DNA of 64,000 bases from an uncultured Chloroflexia bacterium (lineage in GTDB: Bacteria > Chloroflexota > Anaerolineae > CG2-30-64-16): the NCBI GenBank assembly GCA_963810095.1, contig CAWEMM010000006.1, positions 1,419,353-1,483,352 on the forward strand. Direction: 5' to 3'. The notes under the pieces are model-generated. The model made no database searches. It saw only the letters and a program-made list of their open reading frames with translations, and was not told where the DNA came from. The translations under genes were made by a program, and so were the position numbers. Below are positions 4,739 through 61,760 of the stretch, piece after piece. How positions within the stretch are numbered: the stretch's first letter is position 1; each line of letters opens with the position of its first letter.

Positions 4739-4784
4739 TGTTTGGTGGGCGACCGGCCAGAGCATGACGGGGCAAATGGTGATG

Positions 4785-5125
4785 TTTGTTGGGGGCCGTC
4801 TGGCCCCCAACGCCCCCGACGGGGGGCTGCGCCCCCTCGTCCCCCAAAGGTTAAGGGGACGCGTGGCTTCCGCCAATTGGCCCATTTGAGCGTCCACATG
4901 GCGGGGCCAGACGGAAGCGGCTTGCGGGAAACCGGCATTTTGTGGAAGCACGGTTCTGATGCCGACTGCCGTGAGCGAGTCCGGCTGCTGCCCGCTGTCA
5001 ACACGGCCGGGGGCGTTGACCTTGGGGGTTTCGGGGGCAAGGCCCCCGAGGCGGGGGCGGCGGGGCAAGCCTGCCCCCGCCAAGACAAGATGTAGCAAGG
5101 GCGGCGGGGCAAGCCGGCCACAACA
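4785..5125. repeat. composite GC-rich hairpin repeat, copy A (full length)
   Basis: It contains ordered modules. First is the hairpin GTTGGGGGCC-gtct-GGCCCCCAAC (4788-4811). Next come GGGGCTGCGCCCCCTCG, GGCTTGCGGGAAACCGGCATTTTGTGGAAGCAC and the hairpin TCGGGGGC-aag-GCCCCCGA (5031-5049). It ends with GGCGGGGCA...TGCCCCCGCC. The same order is seen at 42896-43287. Confidence 0.8.
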
Positions 5126-5141
5126 GTGAGGTTAATTGACA

Positions 5142-6818
5142 ATGTCGAAACGTCTGCTTGCATTATTCCTGATTCTTCTAGTCAGCCTGGTCCTGGCTGC
5201 GTGCGGCGGGCCGGCCACCCAGCCGCTGAGCTACCGCCCCGCGCCGTGGCAGAGCGGGGAGGTCAGCCGGTACGACCTGGTGGACCGCGGCGGCGCCACC
5301 GTTGGCACGGCCGAGTGGACGTGGCAGCGCGCCGGCGATCAGTGGCGCCAAGGCTACACCGTGACCGTCAACGGCGTGCCAGACACGGGCGAGGTCGTGC
5401 TCGACAACAGCTTGAAGTCGTTGAGCTCGTGGCGCGAGGTGGGCGGCAAGCGCTTCGATACCACGTACGGCGCGAAGACCATCGAGGTCAAGACGACGGC
5501 CGCGGACGGCACGGTCACGACGAAGAGCCTGCCCGCACCGGCCGACGCAATCGACAACGACGTCTCGCTGCAGATTCAGCGGGCAATGCCGCTGGCGGCG
5601 GGCTATGCGACCCGCTACACCGACATTATCCCGACCACGGGCGGCGCGGCGCCCATCGTTCTGAGCGTCACCGGCGCCGAAACGATCACGGTTCCCGCGG
5701 GCACGTTCCCGACGTGGAAGGTCAAGATGGCGGTGGGGTCGACCGCGCACGAGGCGTGGTACGCGCAGCAAGCGCCCTACGCGATGGTGAAATACCTCAA
5801 CTCGGGCTCGGGTGCGCAGTTCGTGCTGACCGGCCTGGCAGGTGCCGCATCTGCGACGGCGTCACAGCCGGCGGCCACCCCGGTTCCGGGCGCGGCTGCA
5901 GTTGCTGGCGAACCGGGGGCCATGGCGCCCATCAACTGGCTCTACCTCGCGCTTGTCGTGTTCATCCAATTGCCCTTCCTGCTTGGCTTGCCGATCGTCT
6001 TGGGCTGGTGGATCAAGCGGCGGTATGGCATCGGCTGGGGGGTGTTCGGGTGGGGCGCACTCTCGTTCATCCTGTCGCAGGTCGTCCATATCCCGCTCAA
6101 CATGGCGCTGGGCCTGATCGGCGCGCCGCCCCGGGGCGTGGCCCTGGCGTCCCCCTTCGTGCTCGGCCTGGTCGCCGGCCTGAGCGCGGCGGTGTGCGAG
6201 GAAGGTATGCGGCTGCTCGTGATCACCGTCTTCGCTAAGAAGATTCGCGGCTGGCGCCCCAGTTTGCAGTTCGGCGCGGGGCACGGCGGCGCGGAGAGCA
6301 TCATTCTCGGCCTGCTGGTGGCCGTGAATCTGATCGGCATCCTGGCCTCGCGCAACCTCGGCGCGATTGGACAAGTGCTGCCCCCCGAGGCAGCCGCACA
6401 ACTGCAGGCCGCGCAGGCCGCATTCTGGGGCCAGAGCCCCTGGATTCCATTCGTCAGCGTGATCGAGCGCATTTCGGCTCTCGCCTTGCAGGTGTCGCTG
6501 GCCGTGCTCGTAGTGGCTTCCGTTACGCGGCGCCGGCCGCTCTACTTCGTCGCCGCGCTTGCGCTGCACACCGTGGTCGATGGTTGGACGATCTGGGCGC
6601 AGCCGCTCGGTGTGGCTGCGATCGAAGCCGGGGTGGCGCTGGCGGGACTCCTGGCCCTGTGGATTATCTGGCGGCTGCGTGAGCAACCCGCTGCCCTCCA
6701 ACCCGTATTAACAGGTGAAGCGGGCAGCAGCCCGGTTCCGAACGCAGCCGACCTGTCCGAGCAGGCGCTTTCACCTGATGAGCTGGCCCGGCGGGCCGAG
6801 CGGTCGCGGTACGAGTAA
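5142..6818 (+). CDS. lipoprotein-type N-terminal domain fused to a YhfC-family intramembrane metalloprotease
   Basis: The signal and lipobox read LLALFLILLVSLVLAAC. A soluble domain of about 250 aa follows, then a multi-TM domain with AAVCEEGMRLL and FGAGHGGAESIILG (YhfC/CPBP-like motifs). ATG 5142 lies behind GTGAGG; the track's alternative TTG is at 5136. Confidence 0.75.
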   Translation: MSKRLLALFLILLVSLVLAACGGPATQPLSYRPAPWQSGEVSRYDLVDRGGATVGTAEWTWQRAGDQWRQGYTVTVNGVPDTGEVVLDNSLKSLSSWREVGGKRFDTTYGAKTIEVKTTAADGTVTTKSLPAPADAIDNDVSLQIQRAMPLAAGYATRYTDIIPTTGGAAPIVLSVTGAETITVPAGTFPTWKVKMAVGSTAHEAWYAQQAPYAMVKYLNSGSGAQFVLTGLAGAASATASQPAATPVPGAAAVAGEPGAMAPINWLYLALVVFIQLPFLLGLPIVLGWWIKRRYGIGWGVFGWGALSFILSQVVHIPLNMALGLIGAPPRGVALASPFVLGLVAGLSAAVCEEGMRLLVITVFAKKIRGWRPSLQFGAGHGGAESIILGLLVAVNLIGILASRNLGAIGQVLPPEAAAQLQAAQAAFWGQSPWIPFVSVIERISALALQVSLAVLVVASVTRRRPLYFVAALALHTVVDGWTIWAQPLGVAAIEAGVALAGLLALWIIWRLREQPAALQPVLTGEAGSSPVPNAADLSEQALSPDELARRAERSRYE

Positions 6819-14936: not shown

Positions 14937-15135
14937 CGCCTGATGACTATTTTGCGGGGGCGCTCTTGCCCCCGCCGCCCCGACGCGAGTGGCTGCCCAC
15001 GACCGACTCATTGGCGGGGAGCGCTCTCGCCCCCGACGCGAGGGGTTGCCACGACCGACTCATTGGCGGGAGCGCTCTTGCCCCCGCCGCCCCCGACCAG
15101 GGGCTGCGCCCCTTGGAACCCCAAAGGCAGCGCTG
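14937..15135. repeat. GC-rich hairpin repeat, copy B (tandem sub-units of about 57 bp)
   Basis: The unit CGACCGACTCATTGGCGGG(G)AGCGCTCT(T/C)GCCCCCG occurs about 2.5 times. There is a hairpin GCGGGGGC-gctctt-GCCCCCGC at 14954-14975. The copy ends with the family module CCAGGGGCTGCGCCCCTTGGAACCCCAAAGG. Confidence 0.75.
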
Positions 15136-15322
15136 TAGGTACACGTTCGCCTGGATAAGTCACTGTACGGGGGATGAGCCAGGGCGGCAGGAACCATGCG
15201 TGTGGTTACAACGCCTAACGGGCCACACGGCTGATGAAGGCAGCCGGCCCGCCGTAAGCGTTGCCTTCGGAGGTTCTGGGGGCGGCGGCGGCATGACATT
15301 GGTCGTATCTGCCTGGGCAAAC

Positions 15323-15351
15323 TTGCGTTTGTTCGTGCAGATTATTATAAT
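15323..15351 (+). promoter_or_regulatory. sigma70-like promoter TTGCGT-17-TATAAT, 10 nt before the start codon
   Basis: The -35 box is at 15323-15328 and the -10 box at 15346-15351. The ATG is at 15362, so the leader is very short or absent. Confidence 0.6.
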
Positions 15352-15361
15352 CGGTTAACCT

Positions 15362-16513
15362 ATGAGCCAACCGGATACACCTCGGCCGTCCTACGGCCAA
15401 CTGCGCACTTGTCCCAGCTGCGGGACACGGGTCGCTCAGAAAGCTGAAACCTGTTTCTTCTGCGGCGCCGCGCTCGATTCAGAGCCACGCCGCCGGCTGC
15501 GATTGCCCTGGGCCGACCTTGTCCTTTTCGCTGCGATCGCCGCGGTGCTCGCCGTGTGGTGGCTGCGCGCCCCCGACGCACCGGAGACGCGCGGACCGGG
15601 CACGGTCGAAGCCGTCTTGAGCGCGCAGCGGGCCGCCGCGTCGCCCACTGCTGCGATCGTCGCTGCTTTGCAGCTGGACGACCCGACGAACACCCCGATG
15701 CCAACCCGAACGCCGCTTCCCACGTCGACAGTCGCTCCCACTGCTACGCCTGAAGCGGCCTCACCCACTCCGGCGGCGGGTCCGACCCGTCACAAGGTGC
15801 AAGCGGGCGATTCCGTAGCGGCTATTGCTGCCAAATATGGCTCGACGATCAAGGATATTATCTCGGCCAACAACCTGAGCGCGGACGGCCGCCTGAGCAT
15901 CGGACAAGAGCTGCTGATCCCGGTTGCCGGGCCTATGGGTGGCCCGGGACCGACGGCGACCCCCGGCACCACGGGCCTGATGTACAACACGCGGGCCGGC
16001 GACACGATCAGCGGCATCGCGACCCGTTTCAAGTCGCAGGTCGACTGGATCATGAAGGCCAATAATATCAAGCCGGGCGACACGCTGCGCATCGGCCAGC
16101 CGCTCCTGGTCCCGCTGGTGCCGGCCACCCCCACCCCCATACCGACCGATCCGATCACGCCCCTGCCGCCGACGCCCACGGAAATCCCGGGCTTGTCTGC
16201 GCCCCAGCTGTTGACGCCGGCGGACGGCGCAACGATTGCGGGACAAGACACGCTCCTTCTGAGTTGGACGTCGGTGGGTGTGTTGGCTCCGGAAGAGTAC
16301 TACGTGGTGACATTGAAGTCGCCCGAGAAGGAAACCGCTGTCGCAACGTGGTGGACCAAGAGCACGTCGTGGCGGCTGCCGGTCGATTACCGGCCCACCG
16401 GCAGCGCAGGGCTGGATTACGTCTGGCGGGTGCAGGTGCGGCGGGGCGGGCAAGACAAGCCGGGCGAGGCCACCAGTCCCACCAGCGAACAGCGGCGTTT
16501 CACCTGGCGTTAA
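15362..16513 (+). CDS. zinc-ribbon / TM / Pro-Thr linker / 2x LysM domain protein
   Basis: The zinc ribbon reads CPSCGTRVAQKAETCFFCGA and is followed by one TM span. The two LysM repeats are HKVQAGDSVAAIAAKYGSTIKDIISANNL and YNTRAGDTISGIATRFKSQVDWIMKANNI. Confidence 0.85.
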   Translation: MSQPDTPRPSYGQLRTCPSCGTRVAQKAETCFFCGAALDSEPRRRLRLPWADLVLFAAIAAVLAVWWLRAPDAPETRGPGTVEAVLSAQRAAASPTAAIVAALQLDDPTNTPMPTRTPLPTSTVAPTATPEAASPTPAAGPTRHKVQAGDSVAAIAAKYGSTIKDIISANNLSADGRLSIGQELLIPVAGPMGGPGPTATPGTTGLMYNTRAGDTISGIATRFKSQVDWIMKANNIKPGDTLRIGQPLLVPLVPATPTPIPTDPITPLPPTPTEIPGLSAPQLLTPADGATIAGQDTLLLSWTSVGVLAPEEYYVVTLKSPEKETAVATWWTKSTSWRLPVDYRPTGSAGLDYVWRVQVRRGGQDKPGEATSPTSEQRRFTWR

Positions 16514-16533: not shown

Positions 16534-16566
16534 AAGTGCCGGGCACCTTCAAGGTGCCCGGCACTT
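16534..16566. terminator. bidirectional rho-independent-type hairpin
   Basis: The hairpin is AAGTGCCGGGCACC-ttcaa-GGTGCCCGGCACTT followed by TT. It lies between convergent genes. Confidence 0.75.
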
Positions 16567-25132: not shown

Positions 25133-25171
25133 AACGACGCCGGGGCGGCCTGAAGCCGCCCCGGCGTCGTT
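25133..25171. terminator. bidirectional terminator hairpin with a 17-bp perfect stem
   Basis: The hairpin is AACGACGCCGGGGCGGC-ctgaa-GCCGCCCCGGCGTCGTT. It lies between convergent genes. Confidence 0.8.
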
Positions 25172-38812: not shown

Positions 38813-38838
38813 GCCGCAAGTTGCCGTCGGGCAACGCC

Positions 38839-38892
38839 AACCTCCGAGGTCGCCTCAGCGTCGCTGAGGGTCAGGACCCCGGAGGTTTTTTG
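38839..38892 (+). terminator. rho-independent terminator (nested hairpins plus a T-run)
   Basis: AACCTCCG (38839-46) pairs with CGGAGGTT (38880-87). An inner CCTCAGC/GCTGAGG hairpin is present, and TTTTGTTG follows. Confidence 0.75.
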
Positions 38893-40336: not shown

Positions 40337-40369
40337 AGACCTCGGAGGTTTTCAAAACCTCCGAGGTCT
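40337..40369 (+). terminator. perfect 16-bp palindromic hairpin
   Basis: The hairpin is AGACCTCGGAGGTTTT-c-AAAACCTCCGAGGTCT followed by TT. It shares the CCTCCGAGG core with the terminator at 38839. Confidence 0.7.
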
Positions 40370-40391: not shown

Positions 40392-42888
40392 ATGCCGCCA
40401 TTGGTGAAAGCAACCGCCGCCACGCTAAGCGCCACCCTGACCGGCGTTGGTCGCGCCCGCCGGCCCACGCTGAAAGGCCATCTGCGACTCCCCGAGTTGA
40501 GCGGCCCGGTCGAGGTCTTTCGGGATGCGTGGGGGGTGCCCCATCTCTACGCCGGCAGCGCGGCGGATCTCTGTTTCGCGCAGGGCTTTGTCCATGCCCA
40601 GGACCGGCTTTGGCAGATGGATTTCCAGCGCCGCCTCGTCGCCGGCCGGCTGGCCGAGGTATTGGGGCCGGCGGTGGTGGGCGTGGACCGCAGCCTGCGG
40701 GTGCTCGGCATGTACCGGGTGGCAGAGGCGGAGGTAAGCCTCCTGAGCGCGGAGGCGCGGCGAGAGGCTGAGGCCTACGCCTCGGGCGTCAACGCGGCCA
40801 TCGAACGGCAGCCGCTGCCGGTCGAGTTCACCTTGCTGCGCTACCGGCCTTACCCTTGGCGAGCGGCGGACTCGCTGTGCTGGGCGAAGATGATGTCATG
40901 GGCGCTGTCGGTCAACTGGGAGAGCGAGCTGCTGCGCGCGAGGCTGATCGAAGTGCTGGGCGTAGAGCGGGCCGCGCAGCTCGAGCCGCTGCTGGCAAGC
41001 CCGATTGTAACGGGGGGCGAGCGGCGTCCCGCGCACCCCTACGGGCCGCTGCCGCCGCGGAATGCGGCGCAAGGACGTGAAGGGGCCGCTCAAGCCGACA
41101 GCGCACCAGAAATCCACATGCCTTCCACGCCGGGCACCCCCGGCAGCAATAACTGGGTCATTGCTGGCGCGCACACGGCCAGCGGCAAGCCCCTTCTGGC
41201 GAACGATATGCACCTGTTGGTCTCCGCGCCGGCCATCTGGTACGAGAACCACCTTGTCTGCACCGATCCCGGCAGCCCGGTCGACGTCACCGGCGTTTCA
41301 TTTCCCGGGATTCCTTTTGTGGTCGCCGGGCATAATGACCGCGTGGCCTGGGGCTTTACCAACGGCTTCCCCGACGTGCAGGACCTGTTTGTCGAGCACC
41401 TCCGCCGGACCGAGCGCGGGGTGGAGTACGAGCACCGGGGCCAATGGCTGCCCGCCGAGGTGCGGCGGGAGGAAATCCGGGTCAAGGGCGAGGCCGCGGT
41501 AACGGAAGAAGTCATCGTCACGGTCCACGGGCCGGTCATCAACCGGCTGGCGGTGGGACTGGCGATGCAGCCCGGCGCGGACGGTCTGCCTGAGCAGCCG
41601 CTCGCGTTGTGCTGGACCTCGCTGACGCCCCACCCAATGGTGGAGTCGCTGCGGGCCATGAACCGGGCGAGTTCGTGCGCCGAGTTCCGGGAAGCCTTGC
41701 GCGGCTGGGTCGCGCCGACCCAGAACGTGGTCTATGCGGACACGGACGGCAACATCGGCTACACCTTCGCCGGTCGAGTGCCGATCCGCCCGCGGGGCGA
41801 AGGCCGCGTGCCCGCGCCGGGCTGGACCGGCGAGTATGACTGGGCAGGCTGGATTCCTTTTGAGGAATTGCCGCACCAACAGAACCCGGCCGAGGGCTAC
41901 ATCGTGTCGGCCAACAACCAGCCGGTCGACGAGAGTTATCCGTACTTCATCGGGCGGGAGTTTGCCCTGGGCGACCGGGCCGGCCGGATTGCCGAGCTCA
42001 TCCGCTCGGGTTCCGCCATCAAGCCGAGCGACATCCGGATCATGCAGCTGGACCAGGAGGCGTCGTCGCTGAAGCGGCTCGCGAGTGTCTTGGGCGGGCT
42101 GGAGCCCTCCGAGCCGGAGCTGCGGGGCTTGGTGACCCTGGTCAGGGCATGGGACGGCCGGCTGACGGCGGAAACCCCTGCGGGCACGATCTGCGAGATC
42201 AGCGGCCCGCGAGGTGCAGATGCTGGTGATGAGGGCCGTGTTGGGCGAAGCCGGCGTTAGCGTGACGCCTGAGAACCCGATTCCCCTCGTCGAACGGGTG
42301 TTGGGTCGCGGGCCCACCCCTGGGATCCAGGACTTTAGCGCTTTCTATCACCGAGTTTGGGAGTGGCTGTACTCGGTGTTGGAGGAGCCGGCGTCGGAGT
42401 GGTGGGATCTGGGGGGCGGCGAGACGCGCGACGACGTGCTGCTGGTTGCGCTCCGGCGCACCTACGACTACCTCGCCGACCGACTGGGCCAGCCTGACCT
42501 GCCCGGCTACGCACAATGGGCGTGGGGCCGGCTTCATACCGTGACGTTCGGGCACGTTGCCGGGCAGGCCCCCACGGTGGCGCGCCATTTCAATCGCGGC
42601 CCGTACCCGGTCGGTGGAGATGAAAACACGGTGTTTGCGACCGGCGGCGGTGTGACCCCCGAAGCCAGCCGGGCCGTGGTCGCGCCGCCCTTCCGCTTCA
42701 TCGCGGACCTGTCCGACTTGTCGCGCTGCTACGGCTTGCTGGCCCCGGGCAACTCGGGGCGACCTGACAGCCCGCACTATGATGACCAGGTTGAGGCGTG
42801 GTTCAAGGGAAAGTATCATCCGATGCTGTACAAGCGGGAGGATGTGGAGCGGGGCGCCCGGCGCAAGCTCATTTTGGCGCCGGCATAG
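40392..42888 (+). pseudogene. penicillin acylase (S45 Ntn-hydrolase) family protein; one +1 disruption near 42200
   Basis: The nucleophile context is GSNNWVIAGAHTASGKPLLANDMHL. The N-terminal 600 aa or so lie in ORF 40392..42260 and the C-terminal 224 aa in ORF 42214..42888. Confidence 0.88.
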
Positions 42889-42895
42889 GGGGGCT

Positions 42896-43287
42896 TTCTT
42901 TTGTTGGGGGCCGCCGGCCCCATCCATTGGATATGTCTTCTGTTGGGGGCCGCCGGCCCCCAACGCCCCGGCCGAGGGGCTGCGCCCCCTCGACCCCCAA
43001 ACTTACTCGGGGAACAGTTCATTTGTGGAGCAACGGCTGGGGCCCACGGACCGCTGCGGGGCTGCCAGTTGCGGGCTTGCACGAGGCCGGCATTTTAGGA
43101 AATGCGCGAGCAATAGCCTCCTCGGGGACATGCAGACGCCGATCTCTTTGGCGATAACTACGCCAGGAGCGTAGCAATTGGGGGTCTCGGGGGCAACGCC
43201 CCCGAGGCGGGGTTGGCAGGGGCCGGCCGGCCCCTGCCAAAAGACCGGAACCTCGAAGCGGGGTGGACGGAGGCCGCCGGCCCCTGC
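42896..43287. repeat. composite GC-rich hairpin repeat, copy D (full length)
   Basis: It begins with two GTTGGGGGCCGCCGGCCCC(C)A hairpins. These are followed by CGAGGGGCTGCGCCCCCTCG, GGCTTGCACGAGGCCGGCATTTTAGGAAATGCGC and CTCGGGGGCAACGCCCCCGAG. It ends with two GGCAGGGGCCGGCCGGCCCCTGCC-type hairpins. Confidence 0.8.
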
Positions 43288-45061
43288 CTAACGCCGCGTC
43301 AAGCCCCACACGAATGCGGCGCCGGCCGCGACGAACAGCCCCGTCGTCAGCCCGGACGACCCACTCGACGTCTGGAACATCATTCCCGCCAGGAATAGCC
43401 CGCCCGCTAGCACGGCCCAGGTGAGCCGGTCGACCGAGCGTTCGAGACGGCGGATCGCCTTCGCCGCATCGGGCGCGAGGGCGGTCTGCTGCACCAACTC
43501 GCCGCGCTCGGCCGCGGTGAGGAACCGGTCGAGTCGCACGGGCAGCCGGAGCGCCAGCTGCATGATGCTGCCCAGCTCGTCTAGCACGCCCCGCCAATCG
43601 CGCGCTAGTTCCTGCGATGCGAGACGCTCGGCGAAGGGCAGCGTCGCAGCCCACGGGTCGAAGTGCGGGTCGAGCGTGGTCGCCATGCCCGACAAGATCG
43701 CGACGGCCCGGATCGCGAAGAGCACGTCGGTGGGGAACTGGAAGGGCAGGTCGTACACCAGGTCCCGGTACTCTCGTATGAGGAACGCGGCCTGCTGCAT
43801 GGCCACGCCGGTGAGTTGGCCCATGCGCACGCCGCCGAAGCGGGCGAACAGAACGTCGTGCAACTCCTCGATCCGCTGCCTGTCTGCCCCCGGCAGCAGC
43901 ACGCCCGCGTCGTAATAAGCCTGCACCAGCCGGCGGGCGTCGCGCGTGCCCACCGCGATCGCCACGTCACGCATCGCACCGCGCATGCTCTCCGGGATCA
44001 CCGCCACCATGCCGAAATCCACGAAGATCAGCCAGAACGGCCGCGGACTGCCGGGCGGTGCCGCGGGATCGCGCGGCAGGGGGTGTACGAACAGGTTGCC
44101 GGGATGCGGGTCGGCGTGGACGAAGCTGTGAACGAAGATTTGCTCGAGGTAGGTGTCGTACAGGCGGCGCGCGACTTCGGCCCCGCTGATCCCCGCAGCA
44201 TCCATGGCCGCCACGTCGTCGATCTTGATGCTGGCGACGTTCTCCAGCGTCAAGACGCGGCGGGTGGTGTATTCCCAGAAGACATCCGCAATGTAGATGC
44301 CGGGATCGCCGGCGAAGTCGTCGGCAAACCGGTCCGCGTTGCGGCCCTCTTCGATGAAATCGAGCTCGGCGCGTGTGGTGCGTGCGAACTCGTCGTAGAG
44401 CCGGTCGAGGTCCGCATGCCGGTTGATGGGGGGGTAGAGCTTTAGCCAGTTGGTCGCCAGGCGCAGTGCGGCGAGGTCGGTTTCGACGAGGAGCTCGATG
44501 CGCTTCCGCTGCACCTTCACCACCACTTCCTCGCCGTCCAAGAGCCGCGCCAGGTGCACTTGTGCCAGCGACGCGGCGGCCTGTGGGGTGGGCGAGAGCC
44601 AGGCATAGACCTCTTCGACCGGCCGCTTGAACTCGCCTTCGATCACGGCGCGGACGTCTTCGAGCGTTTCGGCGGGCACCTCGTCCTGCAGACCGCGCAG
44701 CTCAGACGTGACTTCCGGCGGCAGCATGTCGACGCGAATGCTGAGGAACTGCCCCAGCTTGATCAGAACGCCGCCATAGCGAACCGCCAGGGCCCGATAC
44801 CGCTGTGCATGAGCACGCCAGCGCGCGAGGTTGGTTGCCCGCACGTAGGAGCGGAAGCCGGGCAGGTGGCCCAGCACGAGGTTCCAGCCGATGAAGGAGA
44901 GAAAGACACGCGGCGAAGTAGAACGCGACGCGCAAGTAACGCACGCGGTCGAGCGGCGCGCCGGCCGAAGCTGCCGGCTGTACGAAGTTGGAGAGTTCGC
45001 CCAGCGCAACCTGGCTGGCAGGCGCCGTTCTGGGGCGACGGAAGCGGCGCCCAATACTCAT
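43288..45061 (-). pseudogene. ABC1/UbiB-family atypical kinase; one +1 disruption near 44905
   Basis: The N-terminal 50 aa (MSIGRRF...RYLRVAFYFAA) lie in ORF 44702..45061. The rest (VFLSFIGWNLVL...IKLGQFLSIRVDMLPPEVTSELRGLQDEVP...HADPHPGN) lies in ORF 43288..45054. Confidence 0.85.
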
Positions 45062-55532: not shown

Positions 55533-58386
55533 ATGAGCGCTAGCATCGAAGCCTGGCGGATCGTTCCCTACGAAGGAGGCGCATCGCCCGTTCAAGAAGG
55601 TGCGGGTGCGCGACGAGGCCGCGGGTGCGCGCGGTCGTGCGGCACCTGATGAACGACGAGTGCGTCGCCTTGCTCGGTCCGCCCATGAGCGAGAAGAGCC
55701 ACCTGCTGCGGGACGTGGCGGAGGCGCTGGAGCAGGGCGGTCGCTTCCGGCCGCTGCATATCGACTTGTGGCGCACACGATCGAACGATGAGGCCGCCTT
55801 CTTCACCAGCCTTGCCGAGTCTGCTGGCCGACGAGCTGCGGGACGCCGGCGCCGCGAGTCCCGACGAGCCGGCCGAGCACGCGCGGTTCCAGGGTTATCT
55901 CGCCGCTTGCGAATGCGAGCGGCCGCAGCCTTGCGCTGCTGATCGATCACCTGCAGGCGCTGCCGCACGACCTCGTCCACAGCCTGCTGCGTCGCCCTGC
56001 GCGCGGCCTACATGGAGCGCGAGGCCGACGCGCCGCACAGCCTGGTCGCGGTGGTCACCGGCGGCATCAACCTCGTCGGTCTGTCCGTCCGGCCCGACCT
56101 CGCCGTTCAACATCGCCAAACCCGTGGTCGCGACACCGCTGACCCTCGAACAGAGCCGCGCGCTGGCCGAGGCGACGCTCAAGCGCTGGAGTGCTCGGCA
56201 TCCGCCAACGGCATGGACCGCTTGCTGAGCCTGGGCGCAGGCGACCGGTACCTGATTCCGCGGCTCTGCGCCGACAGCTCCGAACTGGTCAGCTTGCACC
56301 GCCTGCACCGCGTGACGTCGGCCATTGCGGATCGCGCCGGCGCGGGCGCTCGTCGCCCGCGGACGCGGCCGCCGCCCGTTCGCGCCGCCATCCGCATGAT
56401 CGAGGAAGACCCGGACACGGTGCTGGACGTGCTGCACCTGCTCGACCACGGCTCGCTGCCGCGCTCACGCTCGCGCCAGATGCCGACGCGCACCGGCACG
56501 GACCGGCTGCAGCTCTCGGGCGCGGTGGTCCTGGTCGGATGGGTGCTACGGCTTTATGAACGAGGCGTACCGCGAGGCGTTGGCCGCGCACTTCACCACC
56601 GACCGGGTCGGGCACATGTTGCGGATTGCCGGGCCGGTGGAGCGAGGCGATCGCCTATCTCGCGCCGCAGCGGGCGCGCGTCGCGCGTCCGCAGCTGCTC
56701 GAAGCCATCGTCCAGATCGATCTATGCGAGCTGACTCGTCCGAACAGGCGTATCGGGCTGCTGGCCGACGGCCTGCGGCTCGGCTTCGGCCTGTCGGACA
56801 TCGGCATCTACTGCGGCGCTGCCGGCCGACTGCTCAGCTCGACCGCGTCTATCCGCCCAAGGACGGCGGCCCGAGGAGCACGTCGACCTGCGCGATCCCG
56901 GGTGCGTCGAGGCCCAGACCTTCAACCTGGGCAACTATGCGCTGCGCGGCACCGCGGATGAGGCGCGCCTGGTCGTCGCGCTGGCATCGGCCAGCCGGCC
57001 GCTCGGCGTCGTGACGATCGAACGCTATGTGCAGAACCGCGATCCGCACGAGCTGCCCGACGAACTGCCCGACCTGCTGCGTTTCCTGCAGCACGCAGTC
57101 CGGGGCGCTGGAAAACGTCATCACTCGGGCTGCCTACCGCGCCATCGGACAGGCCGTGCTGGATGCCAAGGCCATGCAGCCGACCGTGGAGCGGGTGCTC
57201 GAGACGGTAGCGGAGGCGCTTGGGCTGCGACTACGGCGCCCTGTATCTGCGGGATGAGACCGCCGCCAGCTGGAGATGGCCGCAGCAGTCGGCAGGGTGG
57301 TGACGGAGGAGTGGCAGGCGCAGGCGCGCTTTCCCCTCGACGGCCGACACCCCGCGGTCACCGCGCTGCTGGAGGGGCGGATGTTGACGGCGCGAGGGGG
57401 CGAGGACGCAGAGGACCGCGTGCTGCACGACCGTTTCGGCCTGCACCGCTACCTGCGCGTCTTCCTGCCTCTGCTCGCCGGCGGCGAACAGCTCGGCACG
57501 CTCGAACTGGGCTACGCGAGCCGGCCGCATGCGCATGTCGGATGAGCTACAAGCGGACGCTGGTCGAGTTCGCCGACCAGGTGGCGATCGCGGTGCATAA
57601 CATGCTGCTGCTGCGGCGGACGGACGAGGCGCTGGCACGCGCAAGCTGGCCGAGCTTGTCGGTGGGCCGCGAGATTCAGCTCAGCCTGCTGCCGAAGGTC
57701 ACGCCGACCGTTCCCGGCTGGCAGTTCGCGGCCATGTACGAGGCCGCCCGCACCGTCGGCGGCGACTTCTACGACTTCTGCGAATTGCCGGGTCCGCCCG
57801 CATCGGCTGGGCGTCGTCATTGCCGATGTGGCGGACAAGGGCGTGCCGGCCGCGCTGTTCATGGCGGTCAGCCGGACGATCATTCGCAGCGTCGCGCTTC
57901 ACCGGCCGCGGCCCGGCCGTCTGCCCTGATGCGAGCGAACCAACTGATTCTCGCCGACAGCCAGGCCGACCTGTTCCTGAGCGCGATCTACCTGGTGCTC
58001 GAGACCGACAACGGGCGCGGATTTCGTTCAGCAACGCGGGGCACAACCGGCCGCTGCTGGTACCGCGCTGCGGACCGCGCAGCTCACGCGAGCTGACCCA
58101 GCGCGGCATCATCCTGGGCGCGTTCGACGAGATCACGCTGCAGGACGACACGGCTGGACCTGGCCGCCGGCGACGTGCTGGTGCTGTACACGGACGGCGT
58201 CACGGACGCGCTCAACGCGGACGGGCGAGGAGTTCGGCGAGCAGCGCCTGTTCGACGTGGTGCGGGGCAGCGCCGCACGGCAGCGCGCAGGAGATCCTGT
58301 GGGCGATCACGGGCGCGCTGGCGGGCTTCATCGGCGACACGGAGCAGGCGGACGACGTGACCTGCGTCGTGATCAAGAAGGACTAG
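55533..58386 (+). pseudogene. STAND-like ATPase fused to two GAF domains and a PP2C/SpoIIE phosphatase; at least 12 +1 frame disruptions
   Basis: The fragments begin with VALLGPPMSEKSHLL (P-loop) and LALLIDHLQALPHD. The GAF-like fragments are LETVAEALG..GALYLRD and FLPLLAGGEQLGTLELGY. The SpoIIE fragments are [53 protein letters not shown] and DDVTCVVIKKD-stop. Confidence 0.7.
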
Positions 58387-58475
58387 GCCTTTGTTTGTTG
58401 GGGCCCGGATGACCCTCAACACCTGGTTGCATGGGCCGCCTTGCTGTTGGGGGCCGTCGGGCCCCCAACGCCCCC
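58387..58475. repeat. GC-rich hairpin repeat, copy E, left part (interrupted by the IS)
   Basis: It contains GTTGGGGCCCGGATGACCCTCAAC and GTTGGGGGCCGTCGGGCCCCCAACGCCCCC, ending exactly at the IS481 left end. Confidence 0.7.
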
Positions 58476-58562
58476 GTGTATAGACCGGGGACATAGTAGA
58501 CAGTCGTTCGGAGACATGGTAGACGCTAGAATGGGAATAACTGCCACCGGAAGGAGGCTGAT

Positions 58563-59705
58563 ATGCCCTGGCGAGAGGCAAATGCCATGTCCTTACGACT
58601 TGATTTCGTGACCCGAGCTGGTCACGAAGCTGCTAACGTGCGGGCCCTGTGCCGCGAGTTCGGTATCAGCCCGAACACTGCGTACAAGTGGCTTGTGCGC
58701 TACCAGGCGGCGGGGCCCGCGGGGCTGGCCGATCGCTCACGGCGCCCGAACGCAGTCCGAGCCGACACGCCGCCCGGCCGCGAACAGTTGGTGCTGGCGA
58801 CGCGCCAGGCCCACCCGGCCTGGGGCGGCCGCAAGCTCAAGGCCTACCTGGAGCAGGCCGGCTATGCGGACGTGCCGGCAGCTTCCACCATCACAGCCAT
58901 TCTGCGCCGGCACGGGGCGCTGGATGACCAGGAGGGCGCTCAGCATCGCGCCTTTCAGCGTTTCGAACGTGAGGCGCCCAACGAGCTGTGGCAGATGGAC
59001 TTCAAGGGCCATTTTGCGCTCGGGGATGGTACGCGCTGCGACCCCTTGACGGTCCTCGACGACCATGCGCGCTTCCTGTTGGCGCTGGACGCCTGTGCCG
59101 ACGAGACCCGCCGCACGGTGCAGGCCGCGCTGACCGGCGTCTTCGAGCGCTACGGCTTGCCCGAGCGCATCCTGTGCGATCATGGGCCACCGTGGGGCGC
59201 CCCCAATGCCGGCGACGTGTACACGACGTTGAGTGCGTGGCTCTTGCGGCTGGGCATCGGGGTCGTGCACGGGCGGCCCAAGCATCCGCAGACGCAAGGC
59301 AAGGACGAGCGATTGCATCGCACGTTGCGGGCCGAGTTGCTGCGCCGGCAGACGTTCGCCGATCTGCCGGCCTGTCAGCCCGCCTTCGATACCTGGCGGC
59401 AGATGTATAATGAACAGCGCCCGCATGAGGCGCTAGCCATGCAGGTGCCGGCGGCCCGCTATCGGCCCAGCCCGCGCCCGTGGCCCGCCCGCCTGCCCGC
59501 GATCGAGTATCCGGCCAGCGACCGAGTGCGCCGGGTGCAAGATAAGGGCCAGATCAAAGTCGGCGGCCACGAGTTTCGCATCGGCAAAGCCTTCATCGGC
59601 TACCCGGTGGGCCTCCGGCCCACGAACCAGGACGGCTGCTATGACGTTTACTTCTGCGCCCAGCGCATTGGCCAAATTCAACTATCCGCCGGGCAACGGA
59701 TTTAG
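58563..59705 (+). CDS. IS481-family transposase (DDE integrase core), intact
   Basis: The N-terminal HTH reads MPWREANAMSLRLDFV...LCREFGISPNTAYKWLVRY...DRSRRP. The rve-type core reads ELWQMDFKG...DHGPPWG...KHPQTQGKDERLHRTL. Confidence 0.9.
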   Translation: MPWREANAMSLRLDFVTRAGHEAANVRALCREFGISPNTAYKWLVRYQAAGPAGLADRSRRPNAVRADTPPGREQLVLATRQAHPAWGGRKLKAYLEQAGYADVPAASTITAILRRHGALDDQEGAQHRAFQRFEREAPNELWQMDFKGHFALGDGTRCDPLTVLDDHARFLLALDACADETRRTVQAALTGVFERYGLPERILCDHGPPWGAPNAGDVYTTLSAWLLRLGIGVVHGRPKHPQTQGKDERLHRTLRAELLRRQTFADLPACQPAFDTWRQMYNEQRPHEALAMQVPAARYRPSPRPWPARLPAIEYPASDRVRRVQDKGQIKVGGHEFRIGKAFIGYPVGLRPTNQDGCYDVYFCAQRIGQIQLSAGQRI

Positions 59706-59709
59706 CTCA

Positions 59710-61518
59710 GCCTGTGGGTAAGGGGCTGTCCGAAAAGTAATCGGGCGGCCCCTTTTTTGCGTGCTTTTCTCGCGTTCTTTAAGGATTCATGGTTTAATGG
59801 GGGCATGAAACGCAAACCTGCTGCCCCCGTCTTCAAGCCCTACACGATGGCTCAGCCGCAGTTGCTGCCGCCGAGCCTGGATGAGTTGATCGAGCCGGAC
59901 CACCTGGTGCGGGTGGTAAATGCGGCGATCGACCAGTTGGATTTGCGGCCGCTGCTGGCGCAGTACCCCGGCGGCGGGACGTCCAGCTATCATCCGCAGA
60001 TGCTGCTGAAGGTGTTGGTGTACGCCTATTGCAGCAAGATCTACTCGTCGCGGCGGATTGCGGCGGCGCTGCGGGAGAACATTCACTTCATGTGGTTGAG
60101 TGGCGGGAACCGGCCGGACTTTCGCACGATCAACGACTTTCGCGGGCAGCGGATGAAGGGCGTGATCGACGCGGTGTTCGCCGAGGTGCTGCAGTACCTG
60201 GTCGAGGCGGGGTACGTGCAGTTGGAGCACTACTTCGTCGACGGGACGAAGATCGCCGCCGATGCGAACCAGCACAAGGTGGTGTGGGCCAAGCGCACGG
60301 CGCGTTACCAGCAGCGGGTGCGGGAGCAGATCGCGTGAGTTGCTGCGGCAGATCGAGCAGGTGAATGCTGACGAGCAGGCCGAGTACGGCGATGCCGATC
60401 TGGAAGAGCGGGGCCGGCGGTGGGGGTGGCGAGATCGACTCGGACGCAACTCAAGGAGCGCATCGACCAACTCAACCAGCGGCTCCGCGAGCGTCAGCAC
60501 CCCAAGCCCGAAGCCCAGGCAGCCGAGAAGGCGCTGAAGAAACTGGCGACGGATTGTCTGCCGCGGTTGGAGAAGTACGAGCAGCAGACCGCGACGCTGG
60601 CGGGGCGGTCGAGCTATGCCCAGACCGACCCGGACGCCACGTGCATGCGGATGAAGGAAGACCGCGGCGCCGAGCGGCCCTGGCCCAAGCCGGCCTACAA
60701 CGTGCAGGTGGGCACGGAAGGGCAATTCATCGTCGGGTTCAGCGTGCACGACCAGGCGGGCGACACCGGGTGCCTGATCCCGCATCTGGAGCAGGTGCGC
60801 CAGAACACCGGCGGCCGCTTACCGCAGAACGTGGTGGCGGATGCGGGGTACGGCAGCGAAGAGAACTACGCCTATCTGGAACAGCAGCAGGTGGGCAACT
60901 ACCTCAAGTACAACACCTTCTACCAGGACACGCATCATTACCGCGACCCGGCCGTGCTGCGGGCGCACCAGTTCCGGGCCGAGAACTTCGCCTACGACGC
61001 GGCCACCGACACCTTCGTCTGCCCGGCCGGCCAGCGGCTGCACTTCCAGTACACCACCCGCTACACCAGCGACAACGGCTACCTGAGCGACCGCCGCATC
61101 TACGAATGCTTCGCGTGTGCCGACTGCCCGCTGCGCAGCCAGTGCACCCGGGCCAAAGGCAACCGCCAGATTCGCATCAGTTTCCGCTTGCTCGCCTACC
61201 GCAAGCAAGCCCGCGACAACCTGACCAGCGCCGACAGGTGAGCGCTTACGCGCCGCGCGCTCCGTCGAGGTGGAAACCGTCTTCGGGCATATCAAACAGA
61301 ATATGGGCTTCCGGAGATTTCACTTACGCGGGCGGGCGAAAGTGAAGACCGAATGGGGGCTCGTGAGCATCGCTCACAACCTGAAGAAGGTGGCGGCCGC
61401 ATAGGCCGCTTTTTTTCTCCGCTTTCCGCGAGCTCCAACTCATCTCCCGCTGACTCCGAATCGGCACAAGAAAGGGGCTGCCTGGATGTTCTTTCCAGAC
61501 AGCCCCTTACCCACAGGC
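59710..61518 (+). mobile_element. IS1182-family insertion sequence, nested 5 nt after the IS481 transposase stop
   Basis: The terminal inverted repeats are 28 bp with 2 mismatches. The left one is GCCTGTGGGTAAGGGGCTGTCCGAAAAG (59710-59737). The right one is the reverse complement of CTTTCCAGACAGCCCCTTACCCACAGGC (61491-61518). I saw no clear target duplication. Confidence 0.8.
59805..61404 (+). pseudogene. IS1182-family transposase with four +1 frame disruptions
   Basis: The frame order is 0>1>2>0>1. The fragments are MKRKPAAPVFKPYTMAQPQLLPPSLDELIEPDHLVR..., ELLRQIEQVNADEQAEY, QLKERIDQLNQRL...DAGYGSEENYAYLE...CPLRSQCTRAKGNRQI and the tail VEVETVFGHIKQNMGFRRFHLRG...NLKKVAAA-stop. Confidence 0.85.
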
Positions 61519-61603
61519 CCGACGCGACGACACCATTCTTTAAGGTGTTCAGGTGTCTACGATGTCCCCGAACACCTGTCTACGATGTATTCGGTCCATA
61601 CAC

Positions 61604-61760
61604 CCCGACGAAGGGCTGCGCCGCTTCGACCCCCTAATTTGCTCGGGCAGCACCGCATCCGCCGTCTAACGCGCACGGCTGCCGGCCGGGACGGGGCCGA
61701 CAGTGGCAGGCTTGCACGAACCGACGCGATGGAAAATGTACGTCAGGCGGTTTCGCTTTG
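61604..61760. repeat. GC-rich hairpin repeat, copy E, right part
   Basis: CCCGACGAAGGGCTGCGCCGCTTCGACCCCCTAA and GGCAGGCTTGCACGAACCGACGCGATGGAAAATGTACG are colinear with modules 2-3 of copies A and D. Confidence 0.6.

What the first reader, a model, noticed from the sequence alone, without database searches (positions are those of the whole stretch)
42896..43287. Dispersed modular GC-rich hairpin repeat family occupying the 3' intergenic regions of at least four genes
Copies lie at 4785-5125, 14937-15135, 42896-43287 and 58387-58475 plus 61604-61760. A miniature relative, GTTGCCGTCGGGCAACGCC, lies at 38819-38837.

The full copies A and D share the same order of modules:
1. GTTGGGGGCCG..CGGCCCCCAAC hairpin
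2. GGGGCTGCGCCCC(C)TCG..CCCCCAAA
3. GGCTTGC..GA..CCGGCATTTT..GGAA
4. CTCGGGGGCAA(C/G)GCCCCCGAG hairpin
5. GGC(A/G)GGGGC...GCCCCTGCC-type hairpins

All copies lie directly downstream of stop codons: surE, the 13038 membrane protein, penicillin acylase/UbiB, and the PP2C gene/LTD gene. One copy is an IS target.

They could act as REP/BIME-like elements, meaning terminators, mRNA stabilisers, or binding sites for a nucleoid protein or REP-associated transposase. I do not recognise the family.
Basis: seen in the sequence. Interest (0 to 1): 0.55.

Follow-up and report, generated by a model that had tools for sequence, protein, structure and literature searches.

The report
Mobile GC-rich hairpin repeat family
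Four intergenic spots in this Chloroflexota genome carry copies of a previously undescribed ~400-bp non-coding mobile element, built from two inverted copies of a two-hairpin unit and inserted right after stop codons; it is a new family of a well-known kind (REP/REPIN/MITE-like), not a new kind of biology.

Summary
The repeat family is real. A and D match at BLAST E 4e-18 and 7e-15, while the best of 50 shuffles scores 33 bits. A profile of the unit hits only the four reported loci.

It consists of a T-rich lead, hairpin 1, a GCCCCCG linker, hairpin 2 (GGGGC-TGC-GCCCC core) and an ACCCCCAA tail. Modules 4-5 are the inverted copy of modules 1-2. A and D are therefore ~390-410-bp inverted doublets around a ~170-nt core. 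B is a tandem variant. E is a half element split by a nested IS.

All four loci are empty in sister genomes (UbiB 87-90% identical). D is flanked by a direct repeat of at least 5 bp. Stems are kept by compensatory changes and have almost no G-U pairs. Intact termini abut TAG stop codons.

There is no Rfam match, no terminator-like site in the one copy scanned (D), no plasmid match, and no cognate transposase in the window. A homologous doublet exists in a Chloroflexaceae MAG.

Verdict: a new family of non-autonomous REP/REPIN/MITE-like mobile elements. The mobilising enzyme and any RNA-level role are still inferred.

The parts
4739..5126 (+). Element A, a full inverted doublet (~388 bp). It starts directly after the surE TAG stop (4736-4738). 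Candidate degenerate 9-bp flanking repeat: CGGGGCTAG (4730-4738) and TGAGGTTAA (5127-5135).
   Evidence: No element follows surE in relative L122.
4782..4850 (+). A left unit. Hairpin 1 is GTTGGGGGCC-GTCT-GGCCCCCAAC, followed by linker GCCCCCG, hairpin 2 GACGGGGGGC-TGC-GCCCCCTCGTC and tail CCCCCAAAGG.
   Evidence: nhmmer E = 1e-17; fold.
5021..5089 (-). A right unit, in inverted orientation. Hairpin 1 is the GGCGGGGGCA..TGCCCCGCC type. Hairpin 2 is TCGGGGGC-CTT-GCCCCCGA.
   Evidence: nhmmer E = 4e-13 on the minus strand; fold.
4919..4945 (.). Conserved central segment of A (GGCTTGCGGGAAACCGGCATTTTGTGG). It lies at the geometric centre of the element.
14948..15292 (+). Element B, a variant. It has three tandem units (14948-15004, 15005-15062 and the full unit 15057-15129) followed by ~160 nt without similarity to A or D. 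Candidate 5-bp flanking repeat ATGAC at 14943-14947 and 15293-15297.
   Evidence: (D15). In relative L122 the conserved downstream promoter/start lies ~30 nt after the stop codon. In the window it lies ~390 nt after it.
42883..43291 (+). Element D, a full inverted doublet (409 bp) inserted between the convergent amidase and UbiB genes. It supplies the amidase TAG stop (42886-42888). Its right end abuts the UbiB stop (43288-43290, minus strand).
   Evidence: Empty site TTAGCGCCGCGTCAGG in L120, L121 and L151. Self-symmetry z ~4.7.
42878..42882 (.). Left copy of the direct repeat CGCCG flanking D. The right copy is at 43292-43296. As a 9-mer it reads TTGGCGCCG against CTAACGCCG, with 6 of 9 identical and all mismatches transitions. 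The relatives have a single TTAGCGCCG.
42935..43003 (+). D left unit. Hairpin 1 is GTTGGGGGCCG-C-CGGCCCCCAAC. Hairpin 2 is CGAGGGGC-TGC-GCCCC(C)TCG. It is preceded by a degenerate outer hairpin at 42903-42925.
   Evidence: nhmmer E = 5e-15.
43177..43246 (-). D right unit, inverted. Hairpin 2 is CTCGGGGGC-GTT-GCCCCCGAG. Hairpin 1 is GGCAGGGGCCGG/CCGGCCCCTGCC. It is followed by an outer hairpin remnant at 43264-43288.
   Evidence: nhmmer E = 5e-14 on the minus strand; (I1, I2, I12).
43074..43103 (.). Conserved central segment of D (GGCTTGCACGAGGCCGGCATTTTAGGAAATG). It contains the small palindrome GCATTT-TAGG-AAATGC at the centre of the element.
58387..58476 (+). Element E, left part. It starts directly after the PP2C/SpoIIE TAG stop (58384-58386). 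It holds the outer degenerate hairpin (58397-58420), hairpin 1 (58446-58469) and the linker up to the IS insertion point.
   Evidence: Relatives L148 and L149 have only 58-74 nt here, with a different hairpin.
61603..61742 (+). Element E, right part. It holds hairpin 2 (CGAAGGGC-TGC-GCCGCTTCG), a spacer and part of the central segment. It ends at the stop of the LTD gene, and the right arm is missing.
   Evidence: (69% identity over 118 nt to D).
58477..61602 (+). IS481-family insertion sequence inside the unit of E. Its inverted repeats are TGTATAGACCGG.. and ..CCATACA, and its target duplication is CCCCG (58472-58476 and 61603-61607). It carries a second, DUF772/IS1182-type IS at ~59711-61517. 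It is not part of the family but marks E as an IS target.

Best explanation
These are copies of one family of small, non-coding, non-autonomous mobile elements.

Structure (shown):
- The building block is a ~65-nt REP-like unit. It has a T-rich lead, GC-rich hairpin 1, linker GCCCCCG, hairpin 2 (core GGGGC-TGC-GCCCC) and tail ACCCCCAA.
- The transposing entity is a ~390-410-bp inverted doublet. Each ~120-nt arm consists of an outer degenerate hairpin, a spacer and a unit. The two arms are inverted and flank a ~170-nt core with a conserved centre.
- A and D are full copies. B is a tandem-unit variant. E is a half element, probably made by deletion of one arm at the palindrome centre (inferred).

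History (shown): the elements entered the window's lineage after its split from genomes whose UbiB is 87-90% identical. Each one landed immediately 3' of a stop codon.

Mechanism (inferred):
- A transposase encoded elsewhere recognises the hairpin-bearing arms and moves the element in trans.
- Because D carries a flanking duplication of at least 5 bp, I favour staggered-cut (DDE-type) insertion, as in a MITE (about 0.45). The alternative is a single-strand Y1/RAYT route, as in a REPIN (about 0.3).
- Once inserted, the hairpin clusters are transcribed as 3' ends of the upstream genes. There they probably act as passive 3' protective or insulating structures, not as canonical terminators.
For: Repeat family is real.

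Inverted-doublet architecture:
- I1 and I2 are 35-nt arms, 71-74% complementary.
- Searches show plus-strand and minus-strand unit hits in A and D.
- One search gives self-symmetry z of 4.0-4.7, confined to the outer ~120 nt.

Mobility:
- All four loci lack the element in sister genomes (D; A and B; E).
- There are no unit hits in 96 kb of relatives, against 6 full units in the 64-kb window.
- D has a direct repeat CGCCG where the relatives have a single copy.

Hairpins are the conserved feature:
- In hairpin 1, 98.3% of cells are paired and 4 of 10 pairs are changed on both sides. 0 of 500 shuffles reach the observed score, and slid controls reach at most 59% paired.
- Every unit folds into the same two hairpins, with 0-1 G-U pairs in the five canonical units.
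- The arms of one element pair with each other at only ~74%, while each local stem is ~100% paired.

A and D share the same heterodimer arrangement (GTTG-type left, GGCG/GGCA-type right) and the same centre. They therefore descend from one ~400-bp ancestor.

A homologous inverted doublet exists in a Chloroflexaceae MAG (L013).

The family is not a described RNA family.
Against: - No autonomous partner was found. The two IS elements in the window have unrelated ends. None of the 30 scanned proteins is a Y1 or another candidate transposase.
- Only D has a cleanly defined duplication. Its length (5 or 9 bp) is ambiguous. The candidates for A and B are weak, and a 5-bp junction homology could also arise by microhomology-mediated insertion.
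- Termini are heterogeneous between copies.
- DDE transposases do not need hairpins, so the compensatory changes fit a single-strand (Y1) mechanism or RNA-level selection better.
- Genome-wide copy number is unknown, because the source genome could not be retrieved.
- The covariation rests on few independent events (two or three stem types).
Confidence: 0.7

Rival explanations
1. REPIN/BIME-type elements are moved on single-stranded DNA by a domesticated Y1 (HUH) transposase, a RAYT encoded once in the genome. The enzyme recognises the hairpins together with a short flanking tag.
For: - Inverted doublets of palindromic units, with local stems kept by compensatory change and no G-U pairs, so both strands fold.
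- Heterodimers of two stem types, as in enterobacterial and Pseudomonas REP dimers (PMC3733652).
- Termini abut or supply TAG stop codons, as reported for GTAG REPs (PMC3733652).
- All single or half units are on the plus strand in a window with uniformly positive GC skew.
- An IS is inserted in a unit, as with the REP-targeting IS elements (my own knowledge: IS1397, ISPa11).
Against: - There is no conserved GTAG or CGTC tag.
- D has a flanking duplication of at least 5 bp, which Y1 transposition does not make.
- The unit (65 nt, two hairpins) and the spacer (~170-180 nt, not self-complementary) are far larger than in described REPINs.
- No RAYT was found among the scanned window genes.
- The orientation bias rests on n = 4 and is confounded with gene direction.
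Confidence: 0.3
2. The elements are primarily host-selected RNA-level 3'-end elements (terminators, mRNA stabilisers or insulators between convergent genes). They are kept for that function, and mobility is incidental.
For: - All copies lie directly 3' of stop codons.
- In the relatives the same positions hold other strong hairpins (L122 after surE, L148 between PP2C and LTD), so a hairpin is 'expected' there.
- The elements fold better than shuffles, z = -4.2 to -4.3.
Against: - The only copy scanned (D) has no terminator-like site with a hairpin plus T-run.
- The structure is symmetric and lacks wobble pairs, which argues against strand-specific RNA selection.
- 400 bp is far more than a 3' hairpin needs.
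- The insertions are lineage-specific, and one is interrupted by an IS without an obvious consequence.
Confidence: 0.2
3. The copies form a family of structured non-coding RNA genes (~400 nt) that are expressed independently.
For: Conserved patches are separated by variable stretches, and the predicted structure is strong.
Against: - There is no Rfam match at gathering score, and only noise at E <= 10.
- No promoter-like or terminator-like sites lie inside D.
- Conservation is palindromic (arm against arm), which is typical of DNA elements.
- The copies are absent from close relatives.
Confidence: 0.04
4. The similarity is chance resemblance of GC-rich, low-complexity intergenic sequence.
For: The genome is 67% GC. 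The bare GGGGCTGCGCCCC core also occurs in unrelated contexts.
Against: - BLAST E-values of 1e-15 to 1e-18 against a shuffle maximum of 33 bits.
- Pattern expectations of ~0.
- Collinear organisation over 400 bp.
Confidence: 0.01

Closest known systems
REP / BIME elements (Enterobacteria, Pseudomonas) and the GTAG/CGTC-tagged REP superfamilies (Di Nocera et al. 2013, PMC3733652)
   Same: - Short GC-rich imperfect palindromes, repeated and extragenic.
- Mostly 3' of ORFs, between co-directional or convergent genes.
- Arranged as inverted dimers of two stem types (heterodimers) and as tandem clusters.
- Termini can supply the TAG stop of the flanking ORF.
- Used as targets by IS elements.
   Different: - No conserved GTAG or CGTC tag.
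- The unit is a fixed pair of two different hairpins with C-rich linkers (~65 nt), not one 20-40-nt palindrome.
- The dimer spacer is ~170-180 nt with a conserved centre, against 20-100 nt.
- At least one copy has a flanking direct repeat.
- No RAYT has been identified.
REPINs of Pseudomonas fluorescens (Bertels & Rainey 2011, PMC3116915)
   Same: - The replicating entity is a doublet of inverted REP units, not a single unit.
- Compensatory changes keep the hairpins.
- Singletons or half elements look like decayed doublets.
- Presence or absence differs between related genomes.
   Different: - REPINs are ~100 nt and fold into one long hairpin. Here the arms pair at only ~74% and the ~170-nt core is not self-complementary.
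- RAYT association is unknown here.
- A target duplication is seen at D.
Bacterial MITEs, e.g. Correia elements (Neisseria), Nezha (cyanobacteria), Tn3-derived TIMEs (my own knowledge)
   Same: - 100-600-bp non-coding elements with terminal inverted repeats.
- Flanking duplication and insertion polymorphism.
- Located close to gene ends and co-transcribed as hairpins.
   Different: - No parent IS with matching ends has been found.
- The arms are ~120 nt and made of structured GC-rich palindromes kept by covariation, not simple 20-40-bp transposase-binding TIRs.
- Duplication length is not settled. TA duplication was considered and rejected for D.
GTAG-23 REPs and CCGSSCC(n3-4)GGSSCGG palindromes of Thermomicrobium roseum, the only Chloroflexi REP family listed in PMC3733652
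   Same: The same phylum, a GC-rich genome and hundreds of small GC-rich palindromes of the GGCC..GGCC type.
   Different: [quoted passage not shown]
- Sequence relatedness to the present unit could not be tested, because the consensus is given only in a figure.

Membership tests
REP / BIME (GTAG- or CGTC-tagged REP superfamilies) | Short imperfect palindromes, repeated and extragenic | tested here: met
   Each unit holds two hairpins, with stems of 8-12 bp. There are six full units plus partial ones, all intergenic.
REP / BIME (GTAG- or CGTC-tagged REP superfamilies) | Conserved unpaired GTAG or CGTC tetranucleotide at one end of the palindrome | tested here: not met
   The unit alignment shows no conserved GTAG or CGTC. 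CGTC occurs only in A-left. Element termini read TAGG or TAGT.
REP / BIME (GTAG- or CGTC-tagged REP superfamilies) | Units organised as inverted dimers and/or clusters, located 3' of ORFs | tested here: met
   A and D are inverted dimers, and B is a tandem cluster. All copies directly follow stop codons.
REP / BIME (GTAG- or CGTC-tagged REP superfamilies) | Tens to hundreds of copies genome-wide | not testable with these tools
   Only the 64-kb window is available.
REPIN | Two inverted REPs with a short, length-conserved spacer that fold into one hairpin | tested here: inconclusive
   An inverted doublet is present and the spacer length is conserved between A and D (~170-180 nt). However, the spacer is long and not self-complementary, and the arms pair at only ~74%.
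REPIN | A cognate single-copy RAYT gene flanked by the repeats | not testable with these tools
   No PF01797 hit among the 30 window proteins scanned.
MITE | Small non-coding element with terminal inverted repeats | tested here: met
   Size is 388-409 bp. The outer ~120 nt are inverted repeats, with self-symmetry z of 4.0-4.7. No conserved ORF is shared by A and D.
MITE | Target-site duplication of fixed length | tested here: inconclusive
   - D: CGCCG 5 of 5, or 6 of 9 as a 9-mer, where the relatives have a single copy.
- B: candidate ATGAC.
- A: only a degenerate 9-mer, 5 of 9 identical.
- E: right end missing.
MITE | Presence/absence polymorphism between related genomes | tested here: met
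   4 of 4 loci are empty in relatives. There are no unit hits in 96 kb of relatives.
MITE | A parent IS with the same termini | not testable with these tools
   The two IS elements in the window (IS481-type and DUF772/IS1182-type) have unrelated inverted repeats.
Intrinsic (Rho-independent) terminator | GC-rich hairpin followed by a T/U run | tested here: not met
   The scan of the D locus finds 0 terminator-like sites, against 0.7 expected. The T-rich tracts precede the hairpins instead of following them.
Any Rfam RNA family | Match at the family gathering score | tested here: not met
   Only tRNA-Leu is found in the window. Only noise appears at E <= 10 on D. Nothing is found on 14 related or other loci except a tmRNA.

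The most novel reading that the evidence does not exclude
The hairpin-2 motif, 5'-C-N-A-GGGG-C-TGC-G-CCCC-T-N'-G-A-(A/C)-CCCC with N and N' covarying, may mark a very widely distributed and so far undescribed superfamily of REP-like repeats. It would be analogous to the GTAG and CGTC superfamilies.

The motif occurs in lineage-specific multi-copy intergenic repeats of:
- Streptomyces
- Amycolatopsis, where the full two-hairpin unit sits next to the tmRNA gene
- Ruminococcus, Oscillospiraceae and Anaerotruncus
- Desulfovibrionaceae
- Thermoanaerobaculaceae
- Chloroflexota

That distribution would imply a shared mobilising enzyme or host factor across phyla.
Probability: 0.15. Interest if true: 0.65.

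Novelty: new member of a known kind. Interest (0 to 1): 0.4.

Why it matters
- It documents an active or recently active miniature mobile element family in uncultured Chloroflexota, a phylum where only one REP family (in Thermomicrobium) has been catalogued.
- It shows how the insertions reshape gene ends. They supply a new stop codon to the amidase gene and separate the 3' ends of two convergent genes that overlap in relatives.
- Practically, such elements break short-read assemblies. The 95% relative's contig ends 27 nt into the element. They also seed spurious ORF calls.
- If the cross-phylum hairpin motif proves to be a genuine superfamily, it would point to an unrecognised, widely shared mobilisation or recognition mechanism.

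Tried and rejected
It was too permissive.
2. The metagenome scan with GGGGCTGCGCCCCNNNNNNCCCCAAA gave only 25 hits in mixed contexts, including low-GC contigs. None had the full unit, so the bare core is not diagnostic.
3. The source contig could not be fetched by exact protein look-up.
4. I considered a TA (IS630/mariner-type) duplication, because A, D and E read TA|G at the left end and A and D read TA|A at the right end. I rejected it for D. It would require an extra 11 nt in the ancestor, and UbiB's stop codon would have to be recreated by the insertion exactly where the relatives already have theirs.
5. The promoter idea for the central segment failed. No sigma-70-like site lies inside D.
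6. The 'miniature relative' at 38819 has no profile support. The region is unalignable in the relatives.
7. No similarity was found in 72,556 plasmid records.
8. No paper contains the core string.
9. A covariance model of the whole unit was not built. MAFFT puts hairpin 2 of the inverted units one column out of register. I used an nhmmer profile and per-unit folds instead.

Full report
OBSERVATION

The window is ~67% GC with positive GC skew throughout. It comes from a Chloroflexota, Anaerolineae-like genome. Its UbiB protein is identical to P0001, which sits on a 1.92-Mb NCBI/ENA contig, and named relatives are Anaerolineae or Chloroflexi MAGs.

The repeat is not a GC-richness artefact:
- Each module pattern (up to 3 mismatches) matches only at the reported loci, with a chance expectation of 0.00-0.05.
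- The repeat finder recovers the family without guidance.
- blastn of A against D gives E = 4e-18 and 7e-15. The best of 50 dinucleotide shuffles of D against the window is 32.8 bits.
- 7 of the 21 strongest perfect hairpins in the window fall in the 2.2% of sequence occupied by the family.

ANATOMY

The five 'modules' reduce to one unit. Inverted-repeat detection shows that modules 4-5 are the reverse complement of modules 1-2 (arms 42966-43000 and 43178-43212, and 42945-42979 and 43200-43234, 71-74% complementary).

Put in one orientation, six units align over ~70 nt. The unit has these parts:
- a T-rich lead (TTTG or TCTG)
- hairpin 1 (xxxGGGGGCC-loop-GGCCCCCxxx)
- linker GCCCCCG
- hairpin 2 (CNAGGGGC-TGC-GCCCCTN'G)
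- tail ACCCCCAA

An nhmmer profile of the unit finds full copies only at these places:
- A-left (+), E = 1e-17
- A-right (-), E = 4e-13
- B-last (+), E = 2e-16
- D-left (+), E = 5e-15
- D-right (-), E = 5e-14
- E-left (+), cut into profile positions 4-39 and 35-70 by the IS

Weaker partial copies exist (two further tandem units in B and the outer degenerate hairpins of A, D and E). Nothing else in the 64 kb matches.

A (about 4739-5126) and D (42883-43291) are inverted doublets. Each outer ~120 nt holds an outer hairpin, a spacer and a unit, and the two ends are inverted repeats of each other. They flank a ~170-nt core that is not self-complementary (self-symmetry z = 4.0 and 4.7). E shares the left arm and the centre and then stops at the LTD gene, so it is a half element. 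B has three tandem units and then ~160 nt with no similarity to A or D.

HAIRPINS ARE WHAT IS CONSERVED

Every unit folds into the same two hairpins. The five canonical units have 0-1 G-U pairs out of 20-24 pairs.

For hairpin 1, across the six units:
- 98.3% of cells are paired.
- 4 of 10 pairs are changed on both sides (GTTG/CAAC against GGCG/CGCC against GGCA/TGCC).
- 0 of 500 shuffles reach the observed covariation.
- Slid controls reach at most 59% paired.

Hairpin 2 shows CGA/TCG, CCA/TGG, CTC/GAG and CGAA/TTCG variants.

Within one element the two arms pair with each other at only ~74%, while each local stem is essentially perfect. Selection, or a copy-correction process, therefore acts on the local palindromes and not on a long arm-to-arm hairpin. 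The lack of wobble pairs and the equal conservation of both orientations point to DNA-level or strand-independent function. The caveat is that the covariation reflects only two or three stem types, so few independent events.

MOBILITY

I fetched syntenic loci from sister genomes: GCA_964572645.1 (L120, L148), ERZ25039554 contig_84171 (L121, L122), SRR14932638 (L149) and GCA_054404035.1 (L151). Their UbiB is 87-90% identical. All four sites are empty in these genomes.

- D. In the relatives the convergent amidase and UbiB genes abut or overlap, reading ...TTAGCGCCGCGTCAGGCCCCACA... The window reads ...TTGGCGCCG[409 bp]CGCCGCGTCAAGCCCCACA.... The insert is flanked by CGCCG (5 of 5). Read as 9-mers, the flanks are TTGGCGCCG and CTAACGCCG, with 6 of 9 identical and all mismatches transitions. 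The insert supplies the amidase TAG stop. Its other end abuts the UbiB stop.
- A. Relative L122 has a different hairpin after the surE stop. It also lacks the next gene, 5136-6818.
- B. A nearly identical promoter-like and start region lies ~30 nt after the stop codon in L122 but ~390 nt after it in the window.
- E. The relatives have 58-74 nt with their own bidirectional hairpin. The window has ~230 nt of element plus the IS.

The unit profile finds nothing (E <= 1) in 96 kb of these relatives, against six full units in 64 kb here.

A closer relative (L150, UbiB 95% identical) has, right after its UbiB TAG stop, 27 nt resembling the centre of E (17 of 20 identical). Its short-read contig then ends. 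An element was therefore probably already at this junction in the common ancestor of the two, and its structure differs between them.

STOP-CODON ADJACENCY

The intact termini of A (surE), D-left (amidase), D-right (UbiB) and E (PP2C) each abut a TAG stop. The relatives have TAA at the same codon for surE, PP2C and UbiB. In a crude gene set, TAG makes up 16 of 45 stops, so 4 of 4 is suggestive (about 0.015, computed post hoc). The L013 doublet also ends at a TAG stop. Di Nocera et al. report the same trait for GTAG REPs (PMC3733652).

WHAT IT IS NOT

- There is no Rfam family at gathering score, and only noise at E <= 10.
- The D locus has no terminator-like site and no internal promoter-like site.
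- There is no match in PLSDB plasmids.
- No paper contains the core string.
- The two IS elements in the window are an IS481-family element at 58477-61602 (duplication CCCCG) and a DUF772/IS1182-type element nested at ~59711-61517. Their ends are unrelated to the family.
- None of the 30 window proteins scanned is a Y1 or another candidate transposase.

RELATIVES ELSEWHERE

Among 146 other loci, the full unit matches only two:
- L013, a Chloroflexaceae MAG. It has two units in opposite orientation ~270 nt apart, which is the same doublet architecture.
- L049, Amycolatopsis. It has a single unit next to the tmRNA gene.

The bare hairpin-2 core with its C-rich tail recurs in lineage-specific multi-copy repeats of Streptomyces, Ruminococcus/Oscillospiraceae/Anaerotruncus, Desulfovibrionaceae and Thermoanaerobaculaceae. 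Some 27-mers are identical across phyla. Of 122 pattern hits, 78 extend to stems of at least 6 bp and 28 to at least 8 bp, although the pattern itself forces only 4 bp. The pattern selected these hits and no decoy scan was possible, so I treat this as a lead and not a result.

INTERPRETATION

Shown:
- A real, structured repeat family.
- An inverted-doublet architecture.
- Lineage-specific insertion at four of four sites.
- A flanking duplication at D.
- Hairpins kept by compensatory change.

Inferred:
- The family is mobilised in trans by an enzyme encoded elsewhere.
- The duplication at D favours staggered-cut (DDE, MITE-like) insertion, about 0.45.
- The hairpin covariation, the heterodimer organisation and the TAG-abutting termini favour a single-strand Y1/RAYT (REPIN-like) route, about 0.3.
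- Half elements (E and L150) plausibly arise by deletion at the palindrome centre.
- Any role at the RNA 3' end is untested and is not of the canonical terminator type.

COMPARISON AND NOVELTY

The closest known elements are REP/BIME elements and REPINs (PMC3733652, PMC3116915) and bacterial MITEs. The family fails the defining GTAG/CGTC tag of the described REP superfamilies. Its unit and spacer are much larger than in REPINs. It lacks an identified parent IS, as a MITE would have. It is best filed as a new family of a known kind.

LIMITS

- Copy number in the source genome is unknown.
- The mobilising enzyme is unknown.
- Termini and the length of the duplication are not settled.
- The assembly shows several split genes, so homopolymer errors in G or C runs cannot be excluded.

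Noticed in passing
window 40392-42888; ~55540-58386; 59757-61345: Several genes are split into two or more ORFs although their orthologs in relatives are intact. The penicillin amidase is 870-873 aa in L120/L121. The GAF-SpoIIE/PP2C protein is 939-944 aa in L148/L149. The DUF772 transposase is also split. These are either true pseudogenes or indel errors of a long-read assembly.
   Followed up: partly
window 58477-61602 (outer) and ~59711-61517 (inner): Nested insertion sequences. The outer one is an IS481-family element with IRs TGTATAGACCGG.. and a 5-bp duplication CCCCG. It carries a DUF772/IS1182-type element with IRs CCTGTGGGTAAGGGGCTGTC. The outer IS sits exactly in the linker between hairpins 1 and 2 of element E.
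   Followed up: partly
window 40337-40369 and 38839-38887; L122 7939-7975: A second, unrelated hairpin type, AGACCTCGGAGGTTT..AAACCTCCGAGGTCT, recurs in the window. It has a perfect 15-bp stem at 40337. In relative L122 it lies directly after surE, the position occupied by element A in the window. There are 5 matches in the window against 0.22 expected. It may be a small family of bidirectional terminator-like palindromes.
   Followed up: partly
window 5136-6818: A 560-aa gene (DUF3108 plus a YhfC intramembrane metalloprotease domain) lies between surE and the ABC-transporter ATPase. Relative L122 has no gene at that position, so a gene gain or loss sits next to element A.
   Followed up: partly
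window ~15319-15364; L122 ~16299-16345: A promoter-like stretch (TTGCGT-17 nt-TATAAT) plus the start of the LysM-domain gene is almost identical to the relative over ~45 nt, although the flanking intergenic DNA is unalignable. This suggests a strongly constrained regulatory region.
   Followed up: no
L001-L119 (genome scan), e.g. L062, L016, L006, L001, L007, L030, L037, L049 and many Streptomyces loci: The core C-N-A-GGGGC-TGC-GCCCC-T-N'-G followed by A(A/C)CCCC occurs in lineage-specific multi-copy intergenic repeats of very distant phyla. Some 27-mers are identical between Ruminococcus, Desulfovibrionaceae and window copy B. The middle stem pair covaries. No Rfam family covers these loci.
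   Followed up: partly
L150 1988-2014 (SRR31245145 contig end): In the closest relative found (UbiB 95% identical), the UbiB TAG stop is followed by ACCGAACGCGAGATGAAAATGCCCGCC. This resembles the central segment of elements E and D. The contig then ends, as expected if a repeat broke a short-read assembly.
   Followed up: partly
L013 ~765-850 (minus-strand reading): Three tandem ~27-nt repeats (CCCTGCTCTTTGTGGGGCGCTGCCCCA) lie directly next to the homologous inverted doublet in the Chloroflexaceae MAG, between it and the start of the neighbouring gene.
   Followed up: no
window 16534-16566 and 25133-25171: Two very long perfect hairpins (15-bp and 17-bp stems) lie in intergenic DNA and are unrelated to the family. 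They are probably bidirectional terminators.
   Followed up: no
It has only a 6-bp stem and no profile support. The relatives have unrelated sequence at this position.
   Followed up: yes
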